Source: Escherichia coli
Lineage (GTDB): Bacteria; Pseudomonadota; Gammaproteobacteria; Enterobacterales; Enterobacteriaceae
Direction: 5' to 3' (one strand)
DNA: 64,000 nucleotides
NCBI RefSeq assembly: GCF_024502345.1
Contig: NZ_JALDNN010000001.1
Made by a program: the position numbers and the translations under genes. The notes under the pieces were generated by a model, which saw only the letters and a list, made by a program, of their open reading frames with translations, made no database searches and was not told where the DNA came from. How positions within the stretch are numbered: position 1 is the first letter of the stretch; every line of letters starts with the position of its first letter. Positions 14,372-49,738 of the stretch are shown here, one piece after another.

Positions 14372-14404
14372 GAACGGCAGCAGAAGTGCTGCCGTTTTGT
14401 TATT
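14372..14404 (+). terminator. putative rho-independent terminator
   Basis: Stem AACGGCAGC / GCTGCCGTT followed by TTGTTATTT. Confidence 0.5.
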
Positions 14405-14629
14405 TCACTCACGGAGGTTAATGTGTCCAGTAAGAACAAACGGGGTCCCGATACCCTGTTACCGTCGTTATTCCTTCTCCCGGGTCAACTGTCCCACAAA
14501 ATACCCGTGCGTATGCTTCTCGCGCTAAGTCACAGCTATGCTTTCTGTTCCGGTACCCAGGTCTCTCTGATACACGGTCCGCCAGCTCATGAAGGCGGCT
14601 ATTTATTGCCAGTAATAAGGGAGAAAGAA

Positions 14630-14926
14630 ATGCATTGTCCGAATTGCGGTTCGCAAAACATACGACTGCGCCATGTGGGTAAAAAGACGGGTGGGGTCAT
14701 TGGCGCAACAGCCGGAGGCATTGCCGGGCTTGAAGGAGCCTCCACCGGTGCGCTGATAGGTTCAGTCATTCCGGTTGTCGGTACGATAGCCGGAGGCCTC
14801 ATTGGTTTTCTGTCCGGCGCCTGTGCTGGTGCGGTGGCAGGCTCTCTGGCCGGAGAACAACTGGACGGTACCGTCTTTGATGAATACGGCTGCACGCAGT
14901 GCGAGCATATCTTCAGTGCACCGTAA
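14630..14926 (+). CDS. small zinc-ribbon / glycine-zipper membrane protein (98 aa)
   Basis: MHCPNCGSQNIRL… then Gly-rich TM segment (GGIAGLEGASTGALIGSVIPVVGTIAGGLIGFLSGACAGAVAG) and CTQCEH; start chosen at the internal Met with RBS GGGAGAAAG. Confidence 0.5.
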   Translation: MHCPNCGSQNIRLRHVGKKTGGVIGATAGGIAGLEGASTGALIGSVIPVVGTIAGGLIGFLSGACAGAVAGSLAGEQLDGTVFDEYGCTQCEHIFSAP

Positions 14927-15187
14927 CGTTAATAAGGGTCAGCCCATCCTGCACAAAGCCTGAGCCGCTGACCGTACTCGCTACGGCACGACTGATGACA
15001 GGGCGTGTCAGCATGCTGTCGTCATTTCAGCTACCTGGCACTAACCCTTTGTTAATTCTCCTGTTTACTGAAAGATGAATTTTACTTTTTCTTTTCCGCC
15101 ATTACGGGGGATGGACATAACGTGTCCCTCCCCGCCCGCATAATAACCGCATGAAATATCAACCTATTTATCGCACACGGAGCGTCC

Positions 15188-15916
15188 ATGCAACGACCCG
15201 ATGAAGAGGCCCGCTACGACCGGCTGGCCGTCAGATTGTCGGTCATTATCAGCCGGTTAATGGCCGGAGAAACGCTGACCCTTCAGACACTGTCCGGTGA
15301 GTTTGGTGTATCGATACGCACCCTGCGTCGTGACTTACATCAACGGCTGGTCCACCTCGACATTATCGGGGAGAACGGCACGTATCGGCTCAGTGAGAGC
15401 GCCACGCGTGATCACTCTCCGGGGGCCGTTTCCTTTGCCCGCAGTACCGGTATCGCACGCATTATCCCGTCGCAGAACCGGCAACTGATGCACCTGCTGA
15501 TGAATGAAACGGGCACCTCACCCTGCTTTATCTGGCACGACTTACCGCCAGCATGGACACAGGCTGACAGTTTTCATCGTCTGGCCGAAGCCATTTGTCA
15601 TCACCGGGTGGTCAGTCTGCTGGTCGGCGGTGTCCGTCACGATGAGCAGGAGCCTTACCGCCTGATTTACCGGCATCAGCACTGGTATCTGGTCGTCTGT
15701 TGCCGGGGGAGCCTTCGGGTGTTCCGGCTGGAAGACATTATCTCGGCCTCACTCTCAGAGCAAACCTTCCGTCGCCGGAGCGAAATCAGTTCGCTCATTA
15801 CTGAAGAGGGATTTATCAGCGCACTGCCCCACTTTCGCTTTATCAGTGATGTCATTCACACCTTCAGGGAACAACACCCTGAACATCCATCCAGACCCAA
15901 AGGAGTCAAATCGTGA
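15188..15916 (+). CDS. WYL-domain transcriptional regulator (YfjR-like)
   Basis: N-terminal HTH (GEFGVSIRTLRRDL) and W-Y-L signature (YRHQHWYLVVCCRGSLRVFRLEDI). Confidence 0.7.
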   Translation: MQRPDEEARYDRLAVRLSVIISRLMAGETLTLQTLSGEFGVSIRTLRRDLHQRLVHLDIIGENGTYRLSESATRDHSPGAVSFARSTGIARIIPSQNRQLMHLLMNETGTSPCFIWHDLPPAWTQADSFHRLAEAICHHRVVSLLVGGVRHDEQEPYRLIYRHQHWYLVVCCRGSLRVFRLEDIISASLSEQTFRRRSEISSLITEEGFISALPHFRFISDVIHTFREQHPEHPSRPKGVKS

Positions 15917-16179
15917 AACCTGTCGAAGGCCCTCTGCTGCTCTTCACCCTGATGTTGTCTGCCGTAACCCTGAGCGGCTGTGGCGACAAAAATGAACGCG
16001 AGTTTATCCGGGGATGCAAATCAGGCGGCGGTACTACCGCCGTCTGCGGATGTATCCGGGATGACCTCAAAACGAAATATACGCACGGGGAGCTGGAGAA
16101 AATGAACCAGCAATACGGTTATGTCCCCCCGCGCTTCATGGACAACATGCTGAGCGCTGCTCAGCAGTGCAGAAAATAA
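15913..16179 (+). CDS. putative lipoprotein (88 aa)
   Basis: Signal peptide with lipobox LSGC (…LMLSAVTLSGCGDK…). Confidence 0.6.
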   Translation: MKPVEGPLLLFTLMLSAVTLSGCGDKNEREFIRGCKSGGGTTAVCGCIRDDLKTKYTHGELEKMNQQYGYVPPRFMDNMLSAAQQCRK

Positions 16180-16191
16180 GGAAATCTGAAC

Positions 16192-16503
16192 ATGGCGCTT
16201 GTCATTAAATATTTCGCGATTGCCTTCGCCATCGCGCTTGTGGTCGTGCTGTTTAACGTGTTCGGGAGTACCGGCGAGATACGCAGTTTTGGTCAGGGAA
16301 TGGAATATCTGTTCTGGATGACGCTTGGGCCCGGAGCCGGTATGACGGTCGGTGCTGCTCTTCGACAATGGCTGATGCCGGATGCGGTATACACCCGCGA
16401 AGGAATGACCGGATTACTCAAGGCCCGTCTGTTCTGGCTTGTGGGCCCACAGTATATCGGCTGGCTGGCCGGACTTATCGTCGTGGGTAAACAACTCATG
16501 TAA
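16192..16503 (+). CDS. small inner-membrane protein
   Basis: Two or three hydrophobic helices; operon-like spacing. Confidence 0.5.
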   Translation: MALVIKYFAIAFAIALVVVLFNVFGSTGEIRSFGQGMEYLFWMTLGPGAGMTVGAALRQWLMPDAVYTREGMTGLLKARLFWLVGPQYIGWLAGLIVVGKQLM

Positions 16504-16549
16504 CACGGCTGCCCCCCAACAACATTTTTGACTGAGAAGGAAAAATACC

Positions 16550-17020
16550 ATGCGATTCATGCACGCCATCCTGTCAGCAGGATTACTGACCTTTGCCATC
16601 ACGGCACAGGCGGTCCCCAATATGTGGAGCAGTGGCTTCGGTATGGGCGTCACCGAGTACATCATCACCAGCCCGGAAAACGTGATGATGAACCTGAACT
16701 GCACCGGCAACCCTGACGACCAGAATATCCTGCAGCATCACGTCATGCTCACCCTGCCTGACGGCAGCGGTGCCGATTCACAGGATGAGAAAACCGCCAT
16801 CACCGTCGTCACGGATGACCAGACGTTCCCCCTGCCGTCCTCTCTGGGCTGGCGTAACGGCGACAACGCCTGGCTGTCGTTCATTGATGCCATCAGAAAA
16901 GCAACGTCGTTTGAGATTTACGTCAACGACAAACAGGTGGGGCACTTTACCCCTTCGGCTGGAAACGTTCACAAGGTTCTGGCTGATATGCCCGAATGCA
17001 CGACACTGACCGCCGGGTAA
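16550..17020 (+). CDS. secreted hypothetical protein
   Basis: N-terminal signal peptide (MRFMHAILSAGLLTFAITAQA). Confidence 0.55.
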   Translation: MRFMHAILSAGLLTFAITAQAVPNMWSSGFGMGVTEYIITSPENVMMNLNCTGNPDDQNILQHHVMLTLPDGSGADSQDEKTAITVVTDDQTFPLPSSLGWRNGDNAWLSFIDAIRKATSFEIYVNDKQVGHFTPSAGNVHKVLADMPECTTLTAG

Positions 17021-17068
17021 CCCGGCGCATCCCCGGTTTACAGCAAAATCAATCAAGGACAATACGAT

Positions 17069-17581
17069 ATGACCGACATTTCGACACTCAGCCAGCGACT
17101 GACGACGCCAACCCTGCATTTTGTTCTACTCACCGTCGCCACCTGCGGCATCTGGCCGTTACTGTGGCTGTACCGAAAACAGCAGATTATCAGCGACACC
17201 ACCGGATATCCGGTTTGCGGCAATCTGTTTATCATCTGGCTCGCCGTCTGTTTTGGGCTCGGACGACAGTTCGGCGTGATGGCCTCACCGGACCTGGCGG
17301 GCTACTACACGGGCAGCGATACACTGTTGGCCTTAAGCGGCATTCTGTCGCTCACCTGCGGCGTGATGTACATCGTCTGGGCCTTTAAGGCCAGAGCAGC
17401 ACTGCGACACTATGCGCTGAACACCTTCCGGTTTGACCTGAAGATGAATGCGTTTTATACCGTGGTGCTCAACGTCTTCTACATTACATACTGCATCAAC
17501 GATATGCCGCAGGCACTGGCGAAGCACCGCATTATTCATGGTCAGGCCCCTGTGCCGCCGGAGTCTCCGTCACCGCAGTAA
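17069..17581 (+). CDS. inner-membrane hypothetical protein
   Basis: Multiple TM helices. Confidence 0.55.
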   Translation: MTDISTLSQRLTTPTLHFVLLTVATCGIWPLLWLYRKQQIISDTTGYPVCGNLFIIWLAVCFGLGRQFGVMASPDLAGYYTGSDTLLALSGILSLTCGVMYIVWAFKARAALRHYALNTFRFDLKMNAFYTVVLNVFYITYCINDMPQALAKHRIIHGQAPVPPESPSPQ

Positions 17582-17663
17582 CGCAGCTCTCCTCTTATTA
17601 TCCGGCCGGGGCATTCCTGTGTGCCCCAGATTCATCCGGATCCCCCCTCTGAGATTTGACCCA

Positions 17664-17885
17664 ATGACATTACTGAAAATCGTGCTCAACACCCTGCGTC
17701 AGGTGCTGACGTGGTGCGCCAGCAGCCGGGCGCAGCAGTTTGTGGAAGACCACTTCCGCGAAGAAGGCTATGACGAAGACAGTATTTACATCGCCAGACA
17801 GGCGGCAACCCTGCTCGCAGGTGCCTTAATCACAGCGCTCATGGAACAGATACTGCAGCTTATTGCCACACACTTAACCCACTGA
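17664..17885 (+). CDS. hypothetical protein (73 aa)
   Basis: Start taken at the Met that does not overlap the upstream gene (track ORF 17448..17885 is a longer alternative). Confidence 0.4.
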
Positions 17886-17940
17886 TGCCCTGCTCACTGA
17901 GCGGGGCATTTTGTTTTATGCCATTCATCAGGAACTGAAT

Positions 17941-18174
17941 ATGCAAGTCACTGACGATACGTCGTTACCGCCAGGGCAATTCACCCGCCGACAGGCTGAA
18001 GCCGTGGTCACGCTTTACCACAACGTCACTATAGAAGATGACCAGGGTACGCACTTTCGGCTGGTTATTCGCGACAGCGAGGGGACGTTAATCTGGCGGG
18101 CCTGGAATTTTGAAGCCAGTGCCGGGGAATGGCTTAACCGCTATCTGCTCAGCCACGGGATCCCCAAACACTGA
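17941..18174 (+). CDS. DUF905-family protein (YkfF-like)
   Basis: …[38 protein letters not shown]… ; paralog of 44225..44458. Confidence 0.75.
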
Positions 18175-18206
18175 CACACCACAGCTTAACCCAATAGCGA
18201 CCACAC

Positions 18207-18247
18207 AAAAAAGCCATGCTCCCACAGGAGCATGGCTGTTTTGTTTA
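18207..18247 (+). terminator. putative rho-independent terminator
   Basis: Stem AAGCCATGCTCC / GGAGCATGGCT followed by GTTTTGTTT. Confidence 0.55.
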
Positions 18248-18277
18248 TGCCGTTAAATCAACAATAAGGAATTTACC

Positions 18278-18673
18278 ATGAGACTAGCCAGCCGCTTTGG
18301 ACGGACAAACCAGATCCGTCGCGATCGTCCGTTAACCCGCGAAGAACTGATGCAGGTCGTTCCCAGCGTATTCAGTGCAGATCGCCACGGTTCCAGGAGC
18401 GAAAAATACGCTTACATACCCACCATTACTCTGCTCGAAAATCTTCAACGCGAAGGCTTTGAACCCTTCTTCGCCTGCCAGTCACGCGTACGCGACCCTG
18501 ACCGCCGGGAGCACACCAAACATCTGCTGCGCCATCTTTGTAGACCGGAGAATGATGTTTGGATGAAAGCGAGTTTTGGTACCCTCATCATTGAGGGTAC
18601 CAACAGCAAAATACTCGGCGAATGCTATTGTCTAAGCACAGCGCCAAGCCTTAGCGGCACGAATAGTTGTTAA
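18278..18673 (+). pseudogene. DUF932-family (YafZ-like) gene, 3'-truncated after about 86 codons
   Basis: First 86 aa colinear with the intact paralog at 44557..45375; similarity ends near 18537, where unrelated sequence and the RM cassette begin. Confidence 0.75.
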
Positions 18674-18675
18674 CC

Positions 18676-21414
18676 TTACTCAGCTTTAGCAAACTGCTGG
18701 GTGAAGTAAGCCAATGAATTAGCTTCTTTTACGGCATCATGCGGAATGAGTAAGTATTTCCAAGGTTTGCCACCGTGCTGTGCAAGGTATTCACTGGCAT
18801 GACTACACCATTTCACACCACTGCGGGCTTTTTCGGTGACTTCCTCATTCCAACTGCCGTCTTGGTTTTGATGTTGAGTACTTTTAGTTTCAATCATCAA
18901 TACATAGTCGGCGGTTTCAGCAACGAAATCCGGCACGTATTCAGGATGCTCGCTACCGCGTTTGTAGTACATCTTGAATTGGCCTTTGGCAGGCTTAAAC
19001 CACTTCTCGCAGTCGCGTTCTAAAATCACCGCAAAACGGCGCTCAGTGTCTGAATCAAACTTTTGCAATGGGTATAGACAACGGCTAAAGCCGCCAAAGA
19101 GCATTTGTTTGATGCGACTGACATCGCGTACTGTATCACGGTAGCTTTGCACCGGCTGGTCTTGCGCTATGGTGTAAGCGCAGTCACGTAAGGTACTAAA
19201 GCCACTGCGTACATCGACGACGTACTCGGTTGCTTCTTCAAAGAAGTGGTTGTTCAGTTGCGCATGAATTAACTTCGCAATCGCATCACTCTGGTTTTGC
19301 AGAATGTTCTCAACCACATCGTCGTCGTTTTCAGCGGCCAGTGTATTGACAGCTTGAGTGGCTAGGTCAAACAAAAGTTCAGCTTGCTCGTCGTAAGGAA
19401 TATCGTCGTAATCGAACAGCTTCTTCAAAATATAGTTTTGTTTCACCGGCTCGTAGTTGCCCGAATCGCCTTCGCCACGAATGGTTTGGTGATTGTCTTG
19501 CAGGCTTTGTTGAATCAGAGTTCGGTCGATAGGTTTTAAACCTTTAATGGCAGCAATGTCCAAATCGAACGGGTGATAGCCGGTACGTACTTCACCTGAT
19601 GGTGAAACAATAATACGCGGAATATCTATGGTGTTATCCACCGTGAGCTGGGTGACTTGCTCAACAATCGCCGCAATATCCACCGATTCTTCAGTAAATA
19701 GCTCCCGTTGCTCTTGGGTTAACTGAGCTTTTACTTGTTCGGTGATCTGTGCTTTTACCTCAGTCGTTAACAATGCTTTGCTGGTCGGCGCATCGGTAGG
19801 GCGTGTTTGATATTGCTTGATCACGTCCAATGCAGCGCGGGCAACGGTTTGTTGGTTAGGCGTGGTATAAGTGGCTTTAGGTTCTTGTACCTCACGGTTA
19901 CCGTCTGCACCGGTTGCGGTTACACCTGAACCAGTCAGTTGCTGCTCTAGGTTCGATTTAACCTGCACACTTTGTTTGGTTACATCGTCTTCTGGGCGAT
20001 CTAATACGCGTGTTTTCAGGCGCAGTGGGTTATTCGGGTCGTTAGCCTCATCAACAATTTCTTGGAATTTGTCGTGCGCAACAATGCTCAGCGTATCGAC
20101 GGCTTCAACACCTGTACGTTTGCCATAAGGTAAACGCAAACCACGGCCAATTGACTGTTCAATTAGGGTTCTGGCGTTGGCTGCACGTAGTGGCACAATG
20201 GTGTACAGGTTAGTAACGTCCCAACCTTCTTTCAGCATGTTAACGTGAATGACGATCTCGGTTGGCTCATCGACATGCTCAACATTGAGCAGTGCTTGAA
20301 TAGTTTCTTCTTCTTTTTTACTGCTATCCACTTGAATGACTTTGCCACGGTAGCGGCCGTCAAACACTGTTTCAAGTTTGGTTAAAAGCTCTGCTGCATG
20401 CGTGGTATCACGGGCAATCACCAACATAAAAGGCTTAACTAACTTAGCATCGTTTTCATGTGCATAAGTGATTAAATCCACCTTGGTTTGCTCATGTAAA
20501 CGAATACCGTCCATTAACTTAATGGTTTCTAGTTCGTCTTTATCATATTGGCTGGCATCAAAGTTACGCTGAGTAACAACGGCAGGCTCTTTAACAAAAC
20601 CATCATCCATGGCACAGGCCAATGGGTAATCAATCACCACATTTTTAAAGTGCACAGGGCCACGACTTGATTCGGTAAATGGTGTGGCCGTTAGCTCTAA
20701 TGCGAATAGTGGATTAAGCTCATTGAGCGCACGCATACCGGCATCGGCACGATAGCGATGCGATTCGTCCATCAGCAGCACTAAGTCAGGTAAGTTCGAT
20801 AGATACTCAAAGTAGCTTTCGCCTAGGGTTTCCGCTAAACGCTTAATACGCGGGGCTTTGCCTCCACGTACTTCGGTGTTAATTTTCGCGATGTTAAACA
20901 CATTGATCCGAACCGAACCAAATAGATCGCCCATGACTTGTGCGCCGCGGCTCTCATAGTTATCACCGGTGATCACTTCTGGCGGTGCTAGCACAAAATC
21001 GGTAATGCCTTTAAACACGTACTTCGGTGAGGCGGGCGAGAAATCGCTGATCAGCTTTTCATAAATAGTCAGGTTAGGTGCCAACACAAAATAATTGCGA
21101 ATGCCATGTACCTGATACAAATAGGTAATAAACGCCCCCATCAAACGGGTTTTACCTACACCTGTTGCCAAGGCAAAACACAGTGAAGGAAAGTCACGTT
21201 CAAAATCGCTGAGCTTAGGAAACTGCGCTTTTAAGGTTTCTAATAGCTCCGGCACATCGCGTTTTGGGTTCAGTAGTTTGTGCTCAGAAGCACTAATCGC
21301 CACTGCCAACGCACGCAGCGAATCTTGCTGCGGCTGGCGTAAGCTTAAACGGCCAATAATATTATTAATGGCACGTAATTGGTCGGGTTTTAAGCTTGAT
21401 AAATCCATGGTCAT
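18676..21414 (-). CDS. Type III restriction enzyme Res subunit (SF2 helicase + PD-ExK endonuclease)
   Basis: Helicase motifs I ATGVGKT, II DESH, VI QSIGRGLR; C-terminal PD…ETK (YVPDFVAETADYVLMIETK); directly downstream of the Mod gene. Confidence 0.85.
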   Translation of the reverse strand: MTMDLSSLKPDQLRAINNIIGRLSLRQPQQDSLRALAVAISASEHKLLNPKRDVPELLETLKAQFPKLSDFERDFPSLCFALATGVGKTRLMGAFITYLYQVHGIRNYFVLAPNLTIYEKLISDFSPASPKYVFKGITDFVLAPPEVITGDNYESRGAQVMGDLFGSVRINVFNIAKINTEVRGGKAPRIKRLAETLGESYFEYLSNLPDLVLLMDESHRYRADAGMRALNELNPLFALELTATPFTESSRGPVHFKNVVIDYPLACAMDDGFVKEPAVVTQRNFDASQYDKDELETIKLMDGIRLHEQTKVDLITYAHENDAKLVKPFMLVIARDTTHAAELLTKLETVFDGRYRGKVIQVDSSKKEEETIQALLNVEHVDEPTEIVIHVNMLKEGWDVTNLYTIVPLRAANARTLIEQSIGRGLRLPYGKRTGVEAVDTLSIVAHDKFQEIVDEANDPNNPLRLKTRVLDRPEDDVTKQSVQVKSNLEQQLTGSGVTATGADGNREVQEPKATYTTPNQQTVARAALDVIKQYQTRPTDAPTSKALLTTEVKAQITEQVKAQLTQEQRELFTEESVDIAAIVEQVTQLTVDNTIDIPRIIVSPSGEVRTGYHPFDLDIAAIKGLKPIDRTLIQQSLQDNHQTIRGEGDSGNYEPVKQNYILKKLFDYDDIPYDEQAELLFDLATQAVNTLAAENDDDVVENILQNQSDAIAKLIHAQLNNHFFEEATEYVVDVRSGFSTLRDCAYTIAQDQPVQSYRDTVRDVSRIKQMLFGGFSRCLYPLQKFDSDTERRFAVILERDCEKWFKPAKGQFKMYYKRGSEHPEYVPDFVAETADYVLMIETKSTQHQNQDGSWNEEVTEKARSGVKWCSHASEYLAQHGGKPWKYLLIPHDAVKEANSLAYFTQQFAKAE

Positions 21415-21435
21415 TATAATTATCCTTATTAACCG

Positions 21436-23142
21436 TTAATCTTGCGCTGCATCGTCATCGGCAGACGCATCGTCAGTTAGGTTTGCCACGTTTAACGAAT
21501 AATCGTCCTGACCAAATTGGCACTTGTCTAAAATGGCTTTTGGCAGTTTTTTCAAGGTTAAATTGGTAAAACGACCTGGCTCGCAGCGAAATGCACCACA
21601 CATAACCAGTAAAGTTCGGTCACTGCCAACTTCTTCTGACAGCGCTTCTAATTTATCTACCGATAAGCTTTGTGTGGTGACATAAATATGATCCGTCTCG
21701 GTTGAATAACCGTGATCCCACCAATTCACTTCCGATGGCGCATAGGTAAAACCTTCCAGCTTACAAACGGCTTCGGCGAGCATTTCTGGGTTGTACTCTT
21801 TATTGATCACTTCCAAGCCAAACTTATCTTTCACAATTAAGGTCGGGGCAAGTTTGTAATAGCGGAAGCCACCGCCACCTTGCCAGTTTACAGACTTAGA
21901 AATACCACCTTGATCTTCGCCATCAATCACTTTTTGCAAGCGCGGGATAATATGGGTATGACAATGATCACCTAGCTCGACCGAGATCCAACGTCTTTTC
22001 ATCTTGTGAGCTACAGCAGCAGTAGTTCCCGAACCACCGAATGAATCAAAGACTAAATCGCCTTCTCGCGTACACATTTCGAAAATCCGCTTCAAAAGCG
22101 CTTCGGGTTTTTTTCCATTTTTGAAACTAACGCCGCCTTCATTTGCTATTCCATTCCAACTAATGTCAGTCCAAACATCAGTTATTAGTTCAGCAGGTTG
22201 CATCTCACCGTCAATTTCCAAAAGCCTATTGGAGTAAAAGACCATTTGCCTACCATTTGCGATATAAAAGCCTTCGACATCCTCATTTGGATGTACATAA
22301 ACCTTATCCCTATCTTTCTTTGACTTCTCGATAGTTTCTTTTCTCTTTATTTTAGCACCACCACCAATTGCAACGGATTGAAATACACGTTCTGCATTAT
22401 CAATTGCGAATTGTGCTAATTCATCATCAAATGTATCAGGCAGTTTTTTCTTGGCTTCTTTTGTATCTTTATAGCCATTGGCCTTTGCAAACGCATCGGC
22501 AATACCGCACCACGTCCAACTTTTATAATGGTCATCTGGGTTTAATAGATATTTGTTATATCCCGTATCATATCCTTTAGGTATATAGATTTTGTTAAGC
22601 GGTTTCTGGGTGCGATCTTTTGCGTATACAAGCAAAAAGTTTACTGTGGAGAAAACTGTGGCCCCTGTTGCCTTAAAGCCTGAAGGGTCATTTGTGGTCA
22701 TCGATATGGTATTTAACTGATTTGCACGACCAAAAATCTCGTCCATCAAAACTTTTAAATAAGCCATTTCGCAGTCATCTAAGTGAACGAATATTACTCC
22801 ATCATCACTTAGTAGATTACGAATTATTTCTAACCTATCCCTCATTAAGCCCAGCCAAATGGAATGCTCCAGACCATCATCATAGTGCTCAAAAGCACTT
22901 CCGGTATTGAATGGTGGGTCTATGTAAACACACTTCACTTTGCCTGCATATTCTTGCTCTAGCGCCTTCAATGCCAATAAGTTATCGCCAAAAATCAGTT
23001 TATTATCAAAAATATCGTTTTCGGTCACTTTTTGGCTGGCGTGATAAGACTTGCTCGGGTCTTCTAACAAAATGCGCGGCTCTAACTTTTTGCGCTCGTT
23101 TTTGCCTATCCAGGTCAGTTCTAATTTGGTTTTGCTCATCAT
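21436..23142 (-). CDS. Type III R-M Mod subunit (N6-adenine/N4-cytosine class DNA methyltransferase)
   Basis: Motif IV DPPFN and SAM motif FDSFGGSGTT; mod-res gene order with a 21-bp gap. Confidence 0.85.
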   Translation of the reverse strand: MMSKTKLELTWIGKNERKKLEPRILLEDPSKSYHASQKVTENDIFDNKLIFGDNLLALKALEQEYAGKVKCVYIDPPFNTGSAFEHYDDGLEHSIWLGLMRDRLEIIRNLLSDDGVIFVHLDDCEMAYLKVLMDEIFGRANQLNTISMTTNDPSGFKATGATVFSTVNFLLVYAKDRTQKPLNKIYIPKGYDTGYNKYLLNPDDHYKSWTWCGIADAFAKANGYKDTKEAKKKLPDTFDDELAQFAIDNAERVFQSVAIGGGAKIKRKETIEKSKKDRDKVYVHPNEDVEGFYIANGRQMVFYSNRLLEIDGEMQPAELITDVWTDISWNGIANEGGVSFKNGKKPEALLKRIFEMCTREGDLVFDSFGGSGTTAAVAHKMKRRWISVELGDHCHTHIIPRLQKVIDGEDQGGISKSVNWQGGGGFRYYKLAPTLIVKDKFGLEVINKEYNPEMLAEAVCKLEGFTYAPSEVNWWDHGYSTETDHIYVTTQSLSVDKLEALSEEVGSDRTLLVMCGAFRCEPGRFTNLTLKKLPKAILDKCQFGQDDYSLNVANLTDDASADDDAAQD

Positions 23143-23196
23143 TTCTGTGCTCTTATCTTGTGTTCGTTACTTAGCGTTATTATTCTACAGCAATCG

Positions 23197-25062
23197 CTAC
23201 GCAGGTTGTGCTTGGCGATTACTCGCTTGGGTGTTTTGCCCTTGTCGGCGTTGCGCTTGCTCGGCTAAGTAACTGAATAAATTCTGGTTGTGTGGGTCGT
23301 TCGCTTGAAGGCGTTCTTGTTTTGCTACAACTGCCGGGCTTTCTGCCAAGTTTAAATGGCTAATCCACACCGTTTGCATTAAACGTGCGGTATCGCCCAA
23401 GCGTTTGAAGTATGCGTGCGGCGCACTGCCTAATACTAATGCCGTAAAACTATCAAAAAATTGCTGACGAAGTTCATCAAAAGCGTGGCTGATTAATCTT
23501 TTAAATGCCGCTTGCTCGGTAATCTCAGGAGCCGTAATAGCGCCTTCAAACTGCGCCATTAATAGCGTGGTTATGCAGTAAGTAAAATGTCGATATACCA
23601 GTTTTTCTGGGCTTGGACTACTGCGCTCTGCGTTTGTACATAAGACTTGAATAGCCAGATAGCAGTTCACCGCGTTAATGGCGACGGCCCCCTGTAAATC
23701 TGTACTAAAAACGGCTTGGTACTCGGCACTTTCTTGGTTAGTGAATTTGCTTGGCTCTACTTTTAGCTGATAAGGCACGCGTACATCACCGTGCATACAG
23801 GCCAATGCTTTGGCCAAGGTGTCGATAGTAATGCTGCGAATACCCGCTGCTGCGCTTTGTTGTGGGCGGTAGAGATATTCAACACCAAACATTTTCATCT
23901 CTTGGCGCAAGCGTTCTTGGGTATCATCCAGCGCGGCAAAGTTGGCTAAATCGACCGGGTTTTGCAGGTTACGCGCTTTGGTTACTTGTTTGTGAAATGC
24001 ATCGTTACCCGTGTTGATAATGGTTACCATCACTTGAGCTTGGCTGATGTCTGCATTTGGGTTTTCACGCATAAACTGTGCAGCACTAGCAATGGTTTGT
24101 GCACCGTTAACGACGGACAGGCCATCGACTGCAACATGCTTGCTACCTGTGTGGCCTCTAATATTCCCTTTTGGTTTTACTGCATTGCCAACCAGAGTAA
24201 TGCCATTGTTAAGATAAATAAAATTTTCCGGCTCATGTAAAAGGGTGTCTTTAATCGCCCTATTTACCCCACGTCTGCCAGCACCAATAAAATAGCGAAT
24301 ATTTTTCTCGTAAAGTTTACGGTCATGAGTAGTGTGCAAGGCAATTAAATCGGTTAGCTTGGCGATACCAAATACGACTTTTCGTGGTTGTTCTTGCACT
24401 CGGAACTTATATACAGCGACACGCTCGTTTACCGTATCAACCGCATGTTCACTGCGAAGAGCCTGCTCAACATCGGTGGCGGTGTATTCTTGATATTCAG
24501 GTGCGATTTGCTCTTCACCTTCATCAATCAGCTCTTGGATCGCTGGTTGTAGGTAGTTTTGTGCTTGTATGGTAATGCCATTACCTGTGTATGCGACAAG
24601 CAGTTGAATTCTTTCGCACTCGTCTAATGCGGCTTCAATATTTGCTTGAAGGTTTTGAACATTTTGATTAAAGCGGTGAAATTGCTTGTTTAAAAGTAAC
24701 TTTACACCCTCAATAAAAGCCTGTGCTTCGCCCAATTGGAATTGCGCATCTTCCTTCATTTTTGACTGTACTAAGTACAGAGTCTGATCAGCTTCGTGAT
24801 AATAAATTGCATCAATACCATGGTCTTCATAGTCGTCCACCACAGCTTTTGCTGCGGTCACTACGTCTAAATCGAATTTTTGCTGTAGTACGAATGCGCT
24901 AAAAGCCCTGGAAATTTGCTTTTTAGGTTTATCTTCTCGCCCACCTTGCCCAAGCAATGGCGGTAAATGCGGCACAAAACGCTGCTGTAGCAGTTCTTTT
25001 AATAGGGTAAGAAATTGTGGTTGTAATGCTGCCAAGTGAGTTGTCCTTATTTTTATTGCCAA
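23197..25062 (-). CDS. large abortive-infection-like protein, tentatively AIPR family (621 aa)
   Basis: Size and context (between an Abi_2 gene and an RM system) and a remembered VVNGAQT-like block; family assignment from memory only. Start overlaps the upstream stop by 10 nt. Confidence 0.4.
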
Positions 25063-25994
25063 ATTGGCCGCGCTTGCCAGTCGGCTGGAAAGCCCATGCG
25101 GTCAATGTCTATTTGGTGATGATTTATCAATTGGATGAGTCGTTGCTTCCAGTGATGTTCACCACTGATCACATCCATGAGGTAGCCCAACATCACCAAG
25201 GTGTTATAAATTTTTCGTAAACGCCGGTCGCTATCGGGCAGGTTTTGCAAGCTTTGAATCAGTGCCGGTTCACCATGGCGTGGCAGTACCGTGGTTTTAA
25301 TAAAATCACGGTTCCATAGCCTAGAATGATGGGCACTTAAATTGCGCACTAGCGACAAATGCTCACAGAATGAGGTAAGAGTTTTTTCATCTAGGCCGTA
25401 GCTTTTGCTTATTACCTGGCGGTCGGCACGCAGCTTGATATTGCTGTACCAACAGGAAAGTTGCCCCATGGTTAACAGCTCAACACAGGCCCAAATAGGG
25501 GGTAGTGGCTCTTGATATTTTTGCGTAAGGTGCTTGATGAACTCTTCACGACTGCACTTTACCTCACCCGTGAGTTTGCCAAGGCTACTGGCGTATTCTA
25601 ATAAATCACCAAAGAGCTCTGGTTTTAAATGAGGGTGCGCGGTTTGGTATTTTTGGCTCAACTGATACGCAATTTGTGTGCGTAATGACACCTCAAAACG
25701 CTCGATGGCATCTAGCACTAACAAACGTAGTTCACGGTCGAAAACATATAGGCTTAGGACTTGGTCAAACTGAGTACCTGTGATAAACGTATGACTGGCA
25801 TGATCTTGCTCATAGGGCAAACAATAAGCCGCAAAACGATAGTAGTTCAGCTGTGCTAAGTAAAACTCAGCTTTCGGGACATCACTGATCACTAGGCCAC
25901 GTTGTTGCAACAAGCGTACTTGATCGCTAAAGCTTGTAGGGGGCTTGGTAAAAGCGACTTTAGGGACTGGTTTGCGGCTCATTTGACCTCCCAT
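25053..25994 (-). CDS. Abi_2-family (AbiD/AbiF-like) abortive infection protein
   Basis: 313 aa with N-terminal …[17 protein letters not shown]… signature, which I recall as typical of Abi_2 proteins. Confidence 0.55.
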
Positions 25995-26139: not shown

Positions 26140-29034
26140 TCATTGAACCGTCCACCCAATGGTAAATAGGGTCTCTTGGCTGGTTTTTTTATTCAGTTTG
26201 CCTTCTAAGCTTTCAATCAGCTGTTCGCGCTTTTCGTCCACTTCATCTTGTTTATCAAACAGTTCACGGCGGCTTTTATTGCGCTGACTTTCTAACTGGC
26301 GCTGCTGTTTTTGCAGGGCAAGTTTCTCTTCCAGGGTTGGAGCTATTTTGGCTTCGCGGCGTACTTGCTTGATTTGCTTATCAAGCTCTTTTATAGATTG
26401 TTCAAGCCCTTCTTTTAAATCGTCTGCCCAAGAATCTAACTTGTTTACCTCTTGCTCGAAGAAGCTGAGATTACGATCGTTAACTTGCTTTTCGATGCCT
26501 AGTCTCGACTGCTGTAACGCATGCTGCAGCGCATATTGATAGCCAGGATATAAGGCGGCAAGTTCTTGCTCACTTACTTCACTTTGCACACAGGCACTAA
26601 GCTGCATCAGCTTTTGCACGACTTCACTTGGTAGCGGATGACCATGTTCATCTTGCGCGGCGAACAATAAATGGTCTTCGCTACGCTCCAATGATTCGAC
26701 ACTAAATTTTTGTAGGCTTAGTACACCTGACAAACCCACTAAGGGTTCTAGCATACTGATTTTTGTTTGGTGGTTGCTGTAATCAAAAATTACGCTGGCA
26801 ATGGGTAATTCACGTTGAAGCGCGTTGCTGATCACCCATTCACCCAGCGGGTGGGTGATACGATACACATGGGCATTGGCTAGTTTACCGGTTTCAATAC
26901 TGCCGCTTTGCTGTCCTCGGCGTACAAGTTGGTAGCTACCTGTAGGAGCCTGATTGATACTTTGATTAAGCGTAAAACTATGGTTGCTTGGGTCAATGTC
27001 TGCGATAGCTGCAAGTTCATGCGTACTGAGTTGCCAGAACCAACGGCCTACTTTATCGAGGCGTTGCTGCGCGGCATCTAGCTGAATTTTGAGTAAGTCG
27101 TGAATATCTTCATCGAAATTTTCCAGCAGCAGTTGCTGGGTCTCGCGCATTTTTTGGTTGATGTCGGCTTCTAGCTCTTTTTGCAATTGATCAAAAGCTG
27201 CTTCTATTTCCGCCGGTTGCCGACAAGTCTCGTATATATTTTGGATGCGTTTTTCAAAATCAATACCAGATTCAATGCTGCCTAGCACATCGTCCGATGC
27301 ACCAAACACGCCATCGAACAGATGGAATTTTTCAGTCAGTAACTCTAAAACACGCTGATCGGCTTTGTTGGCTTCGTTGAGGAAGTTGATCACCACAACA
27401 TCAAATTGCTGCCCATAGCGGTGACAACGGCCAATACGTTGCTCTACTCGTTGTGGGTTCCATGGTAAGTCATAGTTAATAAGTAACGAACAGAACTGTA
27501 AGTTAACCCCTTCTGCAGCCGCTTCGGTTGCGATCATAACTTCGGCATGATGGCGGAAGTAATCAATTAGGGCAGTACGGCGGTCAATTTGCGGTGAACC
27601 ACTCACCTTATCACTACCTTGGTTTTCAGCTAACCACTGCTGATAAACTTTGGTTGCTTCTGGATGGTTATTGCTGCCACTAAAGGTGACTAATTTATCA
27701 GCAAAGCCATTCGCCTCGAGGAAACGAGCTAGGTATTCTTGCGTGCGCTTCGATTCGGTAAAAATAATGACTTTACGTGGCGCCCCCATTTCCTCCATTT
27801 TGGCAAACCCTTGATTAAGCGCCGTTAGCAAGGCTTGGGTTTTACTGTCGGTGGTAATGGATTTAGCCTGCTCGATATAATGCTCAAGCTCGGCTATTTC
27901 AGCATTGAGTAACTCAAAGTCAATATCACTCTCAGGGGTATTGCTTTGTGTTTCTTCTACATACTCGCTGTACTCTTCTCCTAAATCATCACTCTCAACA
28001 AGCTCACTGATAATATCGAGGTCCGATTTAGCCTGTACTTTCAAGTCAACCAATCGGCGCTTTATAGTTTCGAGTGTGTTGAGCACTGCGTGCGAACTAG
28101 ATGCTAATAGCTTTCTCAGTATAAGGCCGGTTAAATGACGTTGGCTCTTGGGTAGTGCATAGCTCTCGTCCTTTTCCAATAAGGCACTAATACTTTCGTA
28201 AAGTGCCATCTCAGCATTAGAGGGTGTAAACGGTACGGTGAGTGTTTGACGTTGGGTATAGCGGACGTATTCGAGTACATCTTTGCGCAAGGTACGCTGA
28301 ATAAACCCGGTAAGTCGTTTCTTTAAATGCCCTAGCGCACTTTCGTTATTGACAAAGTGTTGTTTGAAGCTTCGCTCATCGCCGAAGATTTGATCGTCGA
28401 TAATGGTTGAAAGTCCATACAATTCCATGAGCGAGTTTTGTAAGGGTGTTGCAGTAAGTAATAGCTTTTTACTGCCATCTAATGCGCGGCGTAGCGTTTG
28501 ACCCATTTTATTGCTGCTACGATGTGCATTACGTAGCTTGTGCGCTTCGTCGATGACGACAATATCCCATGGCTCTAGCATTAGCTGCGTTTCCATTCTC
28601 GCAGCATAGTGATAGGACATAATAGAAACGCAGTGATTAGCTAGCGGGTTAGTTTGACCATTGTTAACACTAATGCGCCACGTTTTTGCATCAAGCACTT
28701 GCGTTGGTAAATTAAACTTATCGCCCAATTCCTGCGCCCACTGGCGTCGCAATGACGCCGGGCAGATGATCAATATGCGGCGTTTACGCTCTGCCCAATA
28801 CTGTGACAGTACTAAGCCTGCTTCAATAGTTTTCCCTAAGCCCACTTCATCAGCGAGTACAACACCTTTGCTTAACGGGTTGTTGAGCGCAAAAAGTGCC
28901 GCATGAATTTGGTGCGGATTGAGATCAACACTGGCATCAAAAAGAGATTGAGACAATTTATCAACGCCATTTTCAGCGTGGCGAATGGTTAATTCCTGCG
29001 CAAAGTATTTTGCTTGATAATCAGTTATTACCAT
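26140..29034 (-). CDS. SNF2-family helicase (about 965 aa) with C-terminal coiled-coil-rich region
   Basis: Motifs I LADEVGLGKT, II VIDEAHKLRN, III LLLTATPLQN, VI QRIGRCHRYGQ. Start set at MVITDYQ (29034) so that overlap with the upstream HTH gene is 14 nt rather than 95. Confidence 0.85.
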   Translation of the reverse strand: MVITDYQAKYFAQELTIRHAENGVDKLSQSLFDASVDLNPHQIHAALFALNNPLSKGVVLADEVGLGKTIEAGLVLSQYWAERKRRILIICPASLRRQWAQELGDKFNLPTQVLDAKTWRISVNNGQTNPLANHCVSIMSYHYAARMETQLMLEPWDIVVIDEAHKLRNAHRSSNKMGQTLRRALDGSKKLLLTATPLQNSLMELYGLSTIIDDQIFGDERSFKQHFVNNESALGHLKKRLTGFIQRTLRKDVLEYVRYTQRQTLTVPFTPSNAEMALYESISALLEKDESYALPKSQRHLTGLILRKLLASSSHAVLNTLETIKRRLVDLKVQAKSDLDIISELVESDDLGEEYSEYVEETQSNTPESDIDFELLNAEIAELEHYIEQAKSITTDSKTQALLTALNQGFAKMEEMGAPRKVIIFTESKRTQEYLARFLEANGFADKLVTFSGSNNHPEATKVYQQWLAENQGSDKVSGSPQIDRRTALIDYFRHHAEVMIATEAAAEGVNLQFCSLLINYDLPWNPQRVEQRIGRCHRYGQQFDVVVINFLNEANKADQRVLELLTEKFHLFDGVFGASDDVLGSIESGIDFEKRIQNIYETCRQPAEIEAAFDQLQKELEADINQKMRETQQLLLENFDEDIHDLLKIQLDAAQQRLDKVGRWFWQLSTHELAAIADIDPSNHSFTLNQSINQAPTGSYQLVRRGQQSGSIETGKLANAHVYRITHPLGEWVISNALQRELPIASVIFDYSNHQTKISMLEPLVGLSGVLSLQKFSVESLERSEDHLLFAAQDEHGHPLPSEVVQKLMQLSACVQSEVSEQELAALYPGYQYALQHALQQSRLGIEKQVNDRNLSFFEQEVNKLDSWADDLKEGLEQSIKELDKQIKQVRREAKIAPTLEEKLALQKQQRQLESQRNKSRRELFDKQDEVDEKREQLIESLEGKLNKKTSQETLFTIGWTVQ

Positions 29035-29227
29035 CCAACACCCCTTTTCCTTGAGCTGCTTGCGTACTGATCCATTCTTCAAGATCGGATTGTTTAAAGC
29101 GCCAAGCATTGCCAACTTTAAAAGCAGGAATTTTATGTACCGCTGCTAGACGGTAAACAGTTCTCTCATTTACCTTCAAATACTCAGCTACTTCTTTAAT
29201 TGTCAGAACGGTATCAGTCATTTTCAC
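29021..29227 (-). CDS. small helix-turn-helix DNA-binding protein (excisionase/MerR-like HTH)
   Basis: LTIKEVAEYLKVNERTVYRLAAVHKIPAFKVGNAWRFKQSDLEEWI is a typical HTH_17-type pattern; overlaps the SNF2 start. Confidence 0.7.
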   Translation of the reverse strand: MKMTDTVLTIKEVAEYLKVNERTVYRLAAVHKIPAFKVGNAWRFKQSDLEEWISTQAAQGKGVLDGNN

Positions 29228-29433
29228 TCGGCCACTTTGAAAAGTGCGTCAATTATCTAATGCGAGTGTCAAAATAGTACAAATAAGTACATGAATCAAT
29301 CTTATTCGGCACTTGCCGGAGCTCCTTGGCTTTAATCCTCATCAATTTTAGGTACAGTTTTCAGGCTCGGGGATAAAGTATAAAGAATGTCGTACTGCCG
29401 CTGCCAGAGCAATATTCCCCCCTGCTGGTTGTA

Positions 29434-49729: not shown

Positions 49730-49738
49730 AATTCATAT

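What the first reader, a model, noticed from the sequence alone, without database searches (positions are those of the whole stretch)
18530..18680. Left junction of the cassette: truncated DUF932 and a 10-bp perfect palindrome
Similarity to the intact DUF932 copy ends after …HTKHLLR (about 18537). The following about 140 bp contain GGTACCCTCA-TCAT-TGAGGGTACC (18577..18600) and end at the Res stop. The hairpin has no T-run, so it is not an obvious terminator and may be a recombination or insertion scar.
Basis: seen in the sequence. Interest (0 to 1): 0.4.

Follow-up and report, generated by a model that had tools for sequence, protein, structure and literature searches.

The report
Island fusion joint with inherited palindrome
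In an E. coli genomic island, a gene of unknown function was cut short and joined, at ten bases of chance similarity, to the tail of a gene from another mobile element that carries a phage-defence cassette; the palindrome beside the joint arrived with that element and is not a scar of the event.

Summary
DUF932 ends abruptly at 18533. The palindrome has 12-bp arms (18576-18587 and 18592-18603, loop TCAT), and no T-run follows it on either strand.

Bases 12200-18533 are 100% identical to an E. coli island with an intact DUF932. Bases 18524 onward are 99.6-99.8% identical to a type III restriction-modification and Abi cassette found at other loci in at least 27 E. coli genomes, and in Pantoea, Proteus, Methylophaga and Methyloprofundus. 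The two parents overlap at CTGCTGC(G/A)CC, a 9-of-10 microhomology. There is no filler DNA, no duplication and no IS end. The rest of DUF932 is absent from the window. This is therefore an illegitimate-recombination fusion of two islands, not an insertion.

The 140 bp after the joint are the last 46 codons of a conserved convergent ORF. That ORF is a backbone gene of yicC-integrating islands mobilised by SXT/R391 elements, and it is fused in frame here. The palindrome is an inherited hairpin of that gene's 3' end. It shows compensatory arm changes and a loop inversion, and it lies 3 nt from an older backbone/cargo boundary. Its function is unknown.

This is ordinary island mosaicism and of low interest.

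The parts
18278..18533 (+). 5' fragment of a DUF932 gene: codons 1-85 plus one base. Its own RBS and start codon are intact.
   Evidence: Pfam PF06067 matches residues 37-86 to profile positions 2-52 of 227. Bases 12200-18533 are 100% identical to E. coli EH09-18-41, where the gene is an intact 272-aa ORF.
18524..18533 (.). Crossover microhomology CTGCTGCGCC (joint J1). The DUF932 parent reads CTGCTGCGCC and the cassette-side parent reads CTGCTGCACC.
   Evidence: Three-way alignment A2. The megablast hits overlap at query positions 325-334. A stretch of at least 10 bp with at most one mismatch spanning a random joint of the two parents has P of about 2.7e-4.
18534..18673 (+). Last 46 codons (H..C, then stop) of a conserved 226-249-aa ORF. 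This ORF is a backbone gene of yicC-type mobilizable genomic islands. Here it is fused in frame to DUF932.
   Evidence: The intact 238-aa ORF is present in Pantoea L013. The ORF stays open with in-frame 15-nt and 36-nt indels, and dN/dS is 0.16-0.21 overall (tail 0.12-0.22). The family has 119 members.
18278..18673 (+). Chimeric 131-aa ORF: DUF932 residues 1-85 plus 46 residues of the island ORF tail. Probably non-functional.
   Evidence: ORF list. The exact protein is found on 24 contigs from independent samples, and all ten fetched contigs carry the identical 201-bp joint.
18576..18603 (.). Perfect palindrome TTGGTACCCTCA-TCAT-TGAGGGTACCAA. It extends imperfectly to 18574-18605 as TTTT...AACA.
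   Evidence: It is conserved in all copies of this flank. Covariation with other island variants is shown.
18604..18607 (.). Older module boundary (J2). Island-backbone homology ends 3 nt after the palindrome (GGTACCAAC|AGCAAAA). The Res-cassette-specific sequence begins here.
   Evidence: Alignment A5. Other islands continue into a different conserved 'element 2'.
18676..21414 (-). Type III restriction subunit (Res, 912 aa). Its stop codon is 2 nt from the stop of the chimeric ORF.
   Evidence: Pfam ResIII. PADLOC REase_III, E = 9e-191. 97-99% aa identity in Pantoea, Methylophaga and Methyloprofundus.
21436..23142 (-). Type III methyltransferase (Mod, 568 aa).
   Evidence: Pfam N6_N4_Mtase. 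PADLOC MTase_III, E = 7e-285.
23197..25994 (-). AIPR/AbiU-like gene (23197-25062) and AbiD/Abi_2 gene (25053-25994), embedded in the cassette.
26140..29227 (-). DrmD-like SNF2 helicase (26140-29115) and MAD1-like excisionase-family HTH (29021-29227).
   Evidence: RefSeq annotates the HTH as mads1 in L002 and L003.
29357..29376 (.). Right edge of the cassette. A cassette-free island (L004) becomes homologous from 29357. The selC-island copy (L002) stops at 29376. The shared 20-mer is GTTTTCAGGCTCGGGGATAA. There is no counterpart of the palindrome here.

Best explanation
SHOWN. The site is a derived fusion joint between two unrelated mobile-element segments inside the pheU island of an E. coli.

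- The left parent is a CP4-57-like island arm (...DUF905, DUF932...). It is identical to one found next to yghD in strain EH09-18-41.
- The right parent is a fragment of a yicC-type mobilizable genomic island (the MGIVflInd1 family, mobilised by SXT/R391 elements). This fragment consists of a conserved backbone ORF of unknown function, followed on the opposite strand by cargo.
- The cargo is: Res, Mod, AIPR, AbiD, a DrmD-like SNF2 helicase and a MAD1-like HTH.

The two parents were joined at CTGCTGC(G/A)CC, 9 of 10 shared bases. The join removed DUF932 codons 86-272. It also removed the first ~192 codons of the backbone ORF and everything that lay between the two genes.

INFERRED. The mechanism was microhomology-mediated illegitimate recombination. 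The most likely event was a deletion between two islands lying in tandem or nested at tRNA-Phe. The fusion happens to be in frame, because both parents read Leu-Leu-Arg/His across the overlap. It gives a 131-aa chimera that is probably inert.

SHOWN. The palindrome played no part in this event. It is an inherited feature of the 3' end of the backbone ORF. It is found in these islands whatever their cargo (type I restriction-modification, Mrr, retron-like RT, type III restriction-modification). The outer GGTACC hexamers are constant and always 12 nt apart. The inner arms co-vary: CTCA/TGAG versus GTAA/TTAC.

INFERRED, WEAK. The palindrome most likely acts as a stem-loop in the sense transcript of the backbone ORF. 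There it would be a 3'-end stabilising or insulating hairpin between convergent transcription units. It is not an intrinsic terminator.
For: Parentage:
- Window 12200-18533 matches L001 at 100%.
- Window 18524-23840 and 25016-29376 match L002 at 99.8-99.9%.
- Every base at the joint is accounted for by one parent or the other.

The joint is derived:
- In L002, L003, L013, L010, L011, L008 and ten metagenome copies, the cassette-side sequence continues leftward past the breakpoint ('ctagcgctgctgcacc...') into the backbone ORF.
- None of 5426 complete E. coli genomes has the joint. The chimeric protein nevertheless occurs on 24 contigs from independent samples, so the joint is real and specific to one lineage.

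It is not an insertion:
- The DUF932 3' part is absent from the window.
- There is no flanking repeat.

Microhomology: P of about 2.7e-4.

The 140 bp are coding:
- The ORF is intact in diverged copies and its indels are in frame.
- dN/dS is 0.16-0.21.

Island identity:
- Family members sit in the arrangement rph-yicC | int - 112-aa ORF - ... - ORF - cargo.
- This matches the published description of the yicC islands (PMC4542580 section 20; PMC5704250).

Palindrome:
- 96.9% of stem cells are paired.
- Three pairs changed on both sides, and there is one G.U pair.
- It is present with non-type-III cargo.
Against: - The parental arrangement, with the two islands side by side, was not found. Deletion as opposed to some other illegitimate exchange is therefore inferred.
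- All sampled close relatives of the cassette side have A where the window has G (18531). Strictly perfect microhomology is then only 2 bp (CC), which alone has P of about 0.16.
- The name of the backbone ORF in the literature (possibly cds4) could not be checked.
- For hairpin function, the stem carries mismatches in some lineages (L056, L057). The covariation rests on about two independent events. No 3'-end or expression data exist.
- The same palindrome type also occurs inside an unrelated ORF family and in one intergenic site. A simple 'transcript-end hairpin' does not explain that.
Confidence: 0.8

Rival explanations
1. First reader's reading. The defence cassette was inserted into DUF932, and the palindrome is a scar or recombination site left by that insertion.
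For: DUF932 is abruptly truncated next to the cassette. The palindrome lies within 50 bp of the break and is not a terminator.
Against: - The palindrome and its flanks pre-exist in at least 27 E. coli genomes and four other genera that lack the fusion.
- There is no second half of DUF932 in the window.
- There is no matching repeat at the right edge.
- The cassette-side sequence natively extends about 1 kb further left.
Confidence: 0.03
2. The palindrome is a recombination-prone or recombinase-recognised site at which mobilizable islands exchange cargo. On this reading the older boundary J2, 3 nt from the palindrome, was made there, and the related palindromes elsewhere are footprints of the same process.
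For: - Backbone homology ends exactly 3 nt after the palindrome in the Res-type islands.
- The outer GGTACC hexamers are constant and 12 nt apart, with variable inner arms.
- The same inner-arm variants recur in unrelated contexts: GACAT/ATGTC in V. cholerae L044 and in Ilyobacter L059, and CTCA/TGAG in L006, L007 and L009.
- A loop inversion shows that the DNA or its replication intermediates form the hairpin.
Against: - In most islands the backbone continues 110-170 bp past the palindrome before the cargo starts. The palindrome is therefore not the general boundary.
- Only one copy is present per island, with no partner site at the other cargo edge.
- No candidate recombinase is linked to it.
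Confidence: 0.15
3. The palindrome is a transcription terminator, possibly bidirectional, separating the convergent backbone ORF and Res operon.
For: It lies between convergent units. It forms a strong stem of about -23 to -24 kcal/mol on both strands. Res homologues in other contexts are followed by ordinary terminator hairpins.
Against: - No U-tract follows it on either strand. A T-run precedes it and an A-run follows it.
- The terminator scan does not call it, although it does call the hairpin at 18212-18237.
- It lies inside a conserved ORF.
Confidence: 0.08
4. The palindrome is an operator for a dimeric DNA-binding protein of the cassette (for example the MAD1-like HTH), or a paired recognition site for the type III enzyme.
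For: It is a perfect dyad with constant spacing of the two GGTACC hexamers.
Against: The same element occurs in islands whose cargo lacks both the MAD1-like protein and type III restriction-modification, carrying instead type I restriction-modification, Mrr or a retron-like RT. It lies at a 3' end, far from any promoter.
Confidence: 0.05

Closest known systems
yicC-integrating mobilizable genomic islands mobilised by SXT/R391 elements (MGIVflInd1 family; Daccord et al., as summarised in PMC4542580 and PMC5704250)
   Same: Homologues of the ORF whose tail lies at 18534-18673 sit in islands at the 3' end of yicC, next to a tyrosine integrase. Those islands carry variable type I or type III restriction-modification cargo. 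The hosts are the same genera named in the literature: Vibrio, Alteromonas, Pseudoalteromonas and Methylophaga.
   Different: The window holds only a fragment: 46 codons of one backbone ORF plus one cargo cassette. It has no island integrase and no yicC. The region upstream of the ORF, which may hold oriT, is also missing. The fragment is embedded in an E. coli tRNA-Phe island. The palindrome and 'element 2' are not mentioned in the papers I could read.
CP4-57 / CP4-6-like tRNA-associated islands of E. coli (DUF905-DUF932-antirestriction-RadC-YeeU/CbtA arm)
   Same: The left parent, and the second complete copy at 42.5-49.7 kb, have exactly this gene order. The attR copy of tRNA-Phe lies at 49708-49729.
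   Different: One copy of the arm is cut inside DUF932 and continues into foreign DNA.
Microhomology-mediated illegitimate recombination (deletion) junctions
   Same: There is an abrupt switch between two identifiable parents, a 9-of-10-bp overlap, and no filler, target duplication or IS end.
   Different: The overlap carries one mismatch relative to all sampled relatives of one parent. The parental configuration was not recovered.
Intrinsic terminators and REP-like 3' stem-loops
   Same: A GC-containing perfect stem-loop lies at the 3' end of a gene, between convergent units.
   Different: There is no U-tract. The flanking T and A runs are on the 'wrong' sides. The element lies within coding sequence, and it does not have the multi-copy distribution of REP elements.
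Hairpin-loop inversions at perfect palindromes (template-switch mutations)
   Same: The window's loop TCAT is the exact reverse complement of the ATGA found in otherwise 97-99% identical copies (Proteus L011, L029) and in V. metschnikovii L050.
   Different: Here the inversion lies in an ORF and changes Asn-Asp to Ile-Ile.

Membership tests
Insertion scar / terminal repeat of an inserted cassette | A matching direct or inverted repeat at the other end of the inserted segment | tested here: not met
   The palindrome is unique in the window with up to 3 mismatches allowed. No shared repeat links 18400-18760 and 29100-29500. The right-edge 20-mer is single-copy.
Insertion scar / terminal repeat of an inserted cassette | The feature is absent from copies of the cassette that are not inserted at this site | tested here: not met
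   It is present, with identical flanks, in at least 27 E. coli genomes at selC and other loci, and in Pantoea, Proteus, Methylophaga, Methyloprofundus and ten metagenome contigs.
Insertion scar / terminal repeat of an inserted cassette | The interrupted target gene resumes on the far side of the insert | tested here: not met
   No match to EH09 DUF932 beyond codon 85 exists anywhere in the window, apart from the 70%-identical paralogue at 44.3-45.4 kb.
Microhomology-mediated illegitimate recombination joint | An abrupt switch between two identifiable parental sequences, with every base accounted for | tested here: met
   Identity is 100% to L001 up to 18533 and 99.6-99.8% to L002 and others from 18524.
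Microhomology-mediated illegitimate recombination joint | Short sequence identity shared by both parents at the crossover, beyond chance | tested here: met
   CTGCTGC(G/A)CC, 9 of 10 bases; P of about 2.7e-4 in 2 million random joints. Perfect identity is only 2 bp if the mismatch is taken as the limit.
Intrinsic (Rho-independent) terminator | A stable GC-containing stem-loop | tested here: met
   A 12-bp perfect stem, -23 to -24 kcal/mol in a 61-nt context, z of about -4.8.
Intrinsic (Rho-independent) terminator | A U-tract immediately 3' of the stem | tested here: not met
   AACAGCAAAA follows on the plus strand and AAAACTCGC on the minus strand. The scan does not call it.
yicC-type mobilizable genomic island (SXT/R391-mobilised) | Integration at the 3' end of yicC with a cognate tyrosine integrase | tested here: not met
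   This is met in related loci L041-L053. The window has neither yicC nor that integrase next to the fragment, so only a fragment is present.
yicC-type mobilizable genomic island (SXT/R391-mobilised) | A conserved backbone gene adjacent to variable restriction-modification cargo | tested here: met
   The 46-codon tail at 18534-18673 belongs to the 119-member ORF family that occupies that position in the islands. Type III restriction-modification cargo is named in PMC4542580.
yicC-type mobilizable genomic island (SXT/R391-mobilised) | An oriT about 63% identical to that of SXT | not testable with these tools
   No SXT sequence was available. The conserved ~450 bp upstream of the ORF in the islands is a candidate, but it is deleted in the window.
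DUF932 (PF06067) protein | A full-length domain (profile of 227 positions) | tested here: not met
   Only profile positions 2-52 are matched. The intact orthologue is 272 aa.
Type III restriction-modification system (cassette context) | Adjacent Res (ResIII helicase-nuclease) and Mod (N6/N4 methyltransferase) genes | tested here: met
   Pfam and PADLOC hits. Enzymatic activity was not tested.
Known RNA family (Rfam 15) | A covariance-model match over the palindrome region | tested here: not met
   No hit covers 18534-18680 even at E up to 5. There are none at the gathering threshold in island loci L041, L044 and L050.

The most novel reading that the evidence does not exclude
The GGTACC-N12-GGTACC dyad, often flanked by TTTT and AAAA, may be a distinct functional nucleic-acid element of defence-associated mobile DNA and not a by-product of coding sequence.

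It occurs in three settings:
(i) at the 3' end of the backbone ORF of the yicC islands;
(ii) as a free intergenic copy beside restriction-modification cargo in a V. cholerae island (L044);
(iii) inside the ORF of a very large 337-aa 'DNA-binding protein' family that accompanies Fic/Doc and restriction-modification genes.

The same inner-arm variants are shared among these settings. In the 337-aa family, amino-acid pairs co-vary as reverse-complementary codons: Leu..Glu, Val..Tyr and Val..Asp. The element could be a fragile or recombinogenic site that shapes cargo boundaries, or a regulatory RNA or DNA hairpin embedded in coding sequence.
Probability: 0.15. Interest if true: 0.5.

Novelty: new member of a known kind. 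Interest (0 to 1): 0.2.

Why it matters
For this window the result is mainly corrective. The 'cassette' was not inserted into DUF932, and its palindrome is not a scar. Cassette boundaries should therefore not be drawn from this joint.

The result also documents three things:
- how a defence cassette from marine SXT/R391-mobilised islands has been carried, as a fragment, into E. coli tRNA islands at several loci;
- how island mosaics arise by microhomology joins;
- that a conserved hairpin with co-varying arms marks the 3' end of an uncharacterised backbone gene of those islands.

If the palindrome proved to be a recombination or regulatory element shared with the 337-aa family, it would offer a way to study how defence cargo turns over. 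That reading is speculative.

Tried and rejected
- Matching repeat at the right junction: none found.
- Terminator reading: rejected because no U-tract follows the stem.
- Known RNA family: no Rfam hit.
- Extra tRNA or att copies that would mark a tandem-island boundary: no tRNA gene in the window, and a single tRNA-Phe 3'-end copy at 49708.
- Homologous recombination between DUF932 paralogues: rejected. The sequence to the left of the break in the cassette parent is an unrelated ORF with no Pfam, NCBIfam or PADLOC family.
- Plain 'Res 3' UTR': rejected.
  - The region is the tail of a conserved convergent ORF.
  - Res homologues in Glaciecola, Vibrio and Shewanella lose homology about 40 nt before the Res stop.
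  - Those homologues have other sequence downstream of Res.
- The tail as a remnant of a 337-aa-family gene: tblastn finds only the 16 residues spanning the palindrome (E 0.2-0.8). Nothing is found around the L044 palindrome either. Not supported.
- Operator for cassette proteins or a type III recognition pair: rejected, because the palindrome occurs with unrelated cargo.
- Naming the backbone ORF: cds8 is excluded, because it is a DUF927 protein (PMC7449626). cds4 is possible but could not be checked.
- Selection bias in the genome-wide palindrome scan: that scan selected for an intact stem. I repeated the sampling with a flank pattern outside the stem. The stem was still invariant in all ten additional homologous copies.
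Full report
OBSERVATION

The ORF at 18278-18673 begins as a DUF932 protein; Pfam PF06067 matches only profile positions 2-52 of 227. Against the intact paralogue in the same window (44557-45375), the first 256 nt are 76% identical and 67 of 85 residues match. After ...HTKHLLR only 3 of 46 residues match.

The palindrome GGTACCCTCA-TCAT-TGAGGGTACC lies at 18578-18601, one base right of the stated coordinates. Its perfect arms are 12 bp long: 18576-18587 and 18592-18603. It is unique in the window and is the window's longest perfect hairpin. None of 60 Markov simulations reached a 12-bp stem, and none of 100 shuffles matched the pattern. No T-run follows it on either strand. TTTT precedes it and AACA follows it. 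The terminator scan ignores it while calling the hairpin at 18212-18237. Rfam has no match.

THE JOINT (J1)

A megablast of 18200-18760 against 5426 complete E. coli genomes found no genome containing the whole stretch.
- Three records match 18200-18533 at 100%, and in them DUF932 is intact.
- At least 27 others match 18524-18760 at 99.6%, under the 3' end of a 'DEAD/DEAH box helicase', which is the Res gene.

Window 12200-18533, and further left to 6114, is identical to an island next to yghD in strain EH09-18-41. Window 18524-23840 and 25016-29376 are 99.8-99.9% identical to a selC island of strain 2014C-3011.

The three-way alignment shows both parents reading CTGCTGC(G/A)CC at 18524-18533. 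Every base is accounted for. There is no filler, no duplication and no IS end. A shared stretch of at least 10 bp with at most one mismatch at a random joint of these two parents has a probability of about 2.7e-4. If the A/G mismatch is taken as the limit, the perfect overlap is only CC.

The chimeric 131-aa protein is found exactly on 24 contigs from independent runs and metagenomes, and all ten fetched contigs carry the identical 201-bp joint. The joint is therefore real and confined to one lineage.

NOT AN INSERTION

- The 3' two-thirds of this DUF932 copy are absent from the window.
- The right edge of the cassette has no copy of the palindrome and no matching repeat.
- The cassette-free relatives of the two flanks are different islands (EH09 on the left, YSP8-1 on the right), so no empty site joins them.
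- In strains 2014C-3011 and CUPF09, the cassette-side sequence continues about 1 kb leftward past the window's breakpoint.
- The same leftward continuation is seen in Pantoea, Proteus, Methylophaga, Methyloprofundus and ten metagenome contigs.

The window's joint is thus a later event that cut into a pre-existing unit.

WHAT THE 140 BP ARE

In Pantoea sp. ARC607 a 238-aa ORF runs on the strand opposite to Res. It passes through the palindrome and stops 2 nt from the Res stop codon. In copies diverged by 13-15%, the ORF stays open and its indels are 15 and 36 nt long, both in frame. dN/dS is 0.16-0.21 overall and 0.12-0.22 for the tail. The E. coli copies at selC and in CUPF09 carry a CGA-to-TGA nonsense mutation at codon 177. 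That mutation explains why the region looks intergenic there.

The window's chimeric ORF reads the same frame. DUF932 residues 1-85 are followed by His193-Cys238 of this ORF. Both parents encode Leu-Leu-Arg/His across the overlap.

The ORF family has 119 detected members in Vibrio, Alteromonas, Pseudoalteromonas, Marinomonas, Methylophaga, Proteus, Salmonella and E. coli. Its genomic context is constant: rph, yicC, a 416-aa tyrosine integrase, a 112-aa ORF, a variable segment, this ORF, then variable defence cargo on the opposite strand. The cargo is type I restriction-modification, Mrr, a retron-like RT or a PD-(D/E)XK protein.

This matches the published mobilizable genomic islands that integrate at the 3' end of yicC and are mobilised by SXT/R391 elements. 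Those islands have a small conserved core and variable type I or type III restriction-modification DNA (PMC4542580 section 20; PMC5704250). The ORF is not cds8, which is a DUF927 protein (PMC7449626). It may be cds4, but I could not check that.

The cassette comprises a MAD1-like HTH, a DrmD-like SNF2 helicase, AbiD, an AIPR protein, Mod and Res. Its Res is 97% identical in Methylophaga and Methyloprofundus, which implies recent horizontal spread.

THE PALINDROME

In a sample chosen by a flank pattern outside the stem, the stem is invariant in all copies, whereas the flanks vary. Family members with other cargo have a second version at the same place: TTTT GGTACC GTAA CTCA TTAC GGTACC AAAA.
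- The outer hexamers are the same in both versions.
- The 12-nt spacing is the same.
- The inner arms are changed on both sides.

On a seven-sequence alignment, 96.9% of stem cells pair, three pairs changed on both sides, and one is G.U. A common variant, GGTGCC in the 5' arm, keeps pairing only in the ORF-sense RNA. This is a weak hint of an RNA-level role. Some lineages carry mismatches, so the constraint is not absolute.

The loop is ATGA in Proteus, in one gut-metagenome copy and in V. metschnikovii, and ATAA in the marine copies. In E. coli and Pantoea it is TCAT, the exact reverse complement of ATGA. This is a hairpin-loop inversion.

In most islands the backbone continues 110-170 bp beyond the ORF into a second conserved element. 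In the Res-type islands, backbone homology stops 3 nt after the palindrome. This is an older boundary, J2, at about 18606. Res homologues in Glaciecola, Vibrio and Shewanella diverge about 40 nt before the Res stop and have ordinary hairpins downstream.

Because the palindrome occurs with cargo that lacks MAD1 and type III restriction-modification, it is not an operator or recognition site of this cassette.

MECHANISM

Shown: two parents, a 9-of-10-bp overlap, and loss of the intervening DNA.

Inferred: a microhomology-mediated illegitimate recombination, most simply a deletion between islands lying together at tRNA-Phe. The second, complete island arm and the attR copy of tRNA-Phe are still present.

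The function of the hairpin is unknown. My best guess is a stem-loop of the ORF-sense transcript at the interface of convergent units. Recombination-site, terminator and operator readings are ranked lower, for the reasons given under the rival explanations.

AN UNRESOLVED SIDE OBSERVATION

The genome-wide scan for the stem also hit unrelated loci. In Psychrobacter and a Methylophaga MAG, the dyad lies inside a 337-aa 'DNA-binding protein' gene upstream of a Fic/Doc gene. There it has 13-15-bp arms and the same TTTT/AAAA flanks. That family has more than 6600 homologues. Its GT-x4-GT-K motif shows residue pairs that are reverse-complement-compatible: Leu..Glu 23, Val..Tyr 5 and Val..Asp 3. Asp..Asp, with 53 cases, is not compatible.

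A 52%-identical homologue in Ilyobacter lies directly downstream of a type III Res. It has GGTACCGACAT-AG-ATGTCGGCACC. Those are the same inner arms as an intergenic palindrome in V. cholerae island L044. No wider homology to that family surrounds the island or window palindromes. I could not obtain more DNA to test this further.

VERDICT

The 'scar' interpretation is refuted, while a real joint exists. This is ordinary genomic-island mosaicism with an inherited, conserved hairpin. Interest is low, and the only open thread is the wider distribution of the GGTACC-N12-GGTACC dyad.

Noticed in passing
window 49708-50727: The 3' end of tRNA-Phe (attR copy, 49708-49729) is followed by IS1 (49862-50629). 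The core chromosome then resumes 77 nt upstream of dcuS. The ~10.7 kb that normally lie between pheU and dcuS (cadC, cadB, cadA, dtpC, lysU, ghoST, yjdJ, yjdI) are missing. This is an IS1-associated loss of the lysine decarboxylase locus.
   Followed up: partly
L007 5981-6012; L009 11072-11097; L006 2784-2817; L059 about 1780-1806; L044 7040-7063: The same GGTACC-N12-GGTACC dyad occurs inside a very large 337-aa 'DNA-binding protein' family that sits next to Fic/Doc genes, and in Ilyobacter next to a type III Res. It also occurs as a free intergenic copy in a V. cholerae island. In the protein family, residue pairs co-vary as reverse-complementary codons (L..E, V..Y, V..D).
   Followed up: partly
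window 18588-18591, compared with L011 341-344, L029 and L050: The 4-nt loop of the palindrome is inverted (TCAT versus ATGA) between otherwise 97-99% identical copies. This changes the encoded Asn-Asp to Ile-Ile, and is the signature of hairpin-mediated template switching.
   Followed up: yes
L002 14962-14964; L003 15962-15964: E. coli copies of the island backbone ORF carry a CGA-to-TGA nonsense mutation at codon 177. RefSeq therefore annotates a 176- or 192-aa hypothetical protein, and the palindrome appears intergenic.
   Followed up: yes
window 23840-25016: The AIPR gene is intact (621 aa) in the window. It carries a ~1.18-kb internal deletion in the selC-island copy of strain 2014C-3011, where it is annotated as a 206-aa hypothetical protein. 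CUPF09 and MB46 have IS1 insertions and Abi gene fragments instead.
   Followed up: partly
window 21436-23142, compared with L008, L010 and L013: Mod is only 60-85% identical between copies whose Res, AbiD and SNF2 proteins are 96-99% identical. This is consistent with swapping of the target-recognition region of the type III methyltransferase.
   Followed up: no
window 29357-29376: The 20-mer GTTTTCAGGCTCGGGGATAA is shared by three kinds of locus. These are the cassette-bearing islands, the selC-island copy whose downstream flank differs, and a cassette-free island whose upstream flank differs. It is single-copy in each. The likely explanation is a cargo/backbone boundary at 29356/29357 plus a deletion endpoint 20 bp further on in the selC copy.
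   Followed up: partly
L041 6712-6811; L047 (two copies, at about +10..+109 and +506..+635 from the ORF stop); L050; L044: A second conserved non-coding element lies downstream of the backbone ORF in most yicC islands (GAGTAACCCCTC..GGGCGCTGATCTAACGGGTAGCGGGAGGGGTGTTGTTGGTGCGATTTTAATAT). It has variable tetranucleotides in a small hairpin and gives no Rfam hit. It is duplicated in one Tara contig and absent from the Res-type islands and from the window.
   Followed up: partly
L002 14005-14434; L013 8440-8868: E. coli and Pantoea copies retain ~370-430 bp upstream of the backbone ORF. This region is conserved among the yicC islands and is a candidate for their SXT-like oriT. It is deleted in the window.
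   Followed up: no
L029 about 10400-10440; protein P0134: There are further independent breakpoints in the same backbone ORF. A gut-metagenome contig diverges inside its 3' third. A 141-aa protein fuses an integrase fragment to the ORF's C-terminal part. The region is repeatedly rearranged.
   Followed up: no
window 1424-6146: A cluster of a group II intron (RT/maturase, 2000-3523), IS30 (4674-5825) and IS3 fragments bounds the left end (6114) of the segment that is identical to the EH09-18-41 island.
   Followed up: no
window 18212-18237: A perfect 11-bp hairpin with T-runs on both sides lies between the DUF905 gene and DUF932. It is terminator-like in both directions. Weak sub-threshold Rfam hits here (Thr_leader, STnc310) are probably chance.
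   Followed up: no
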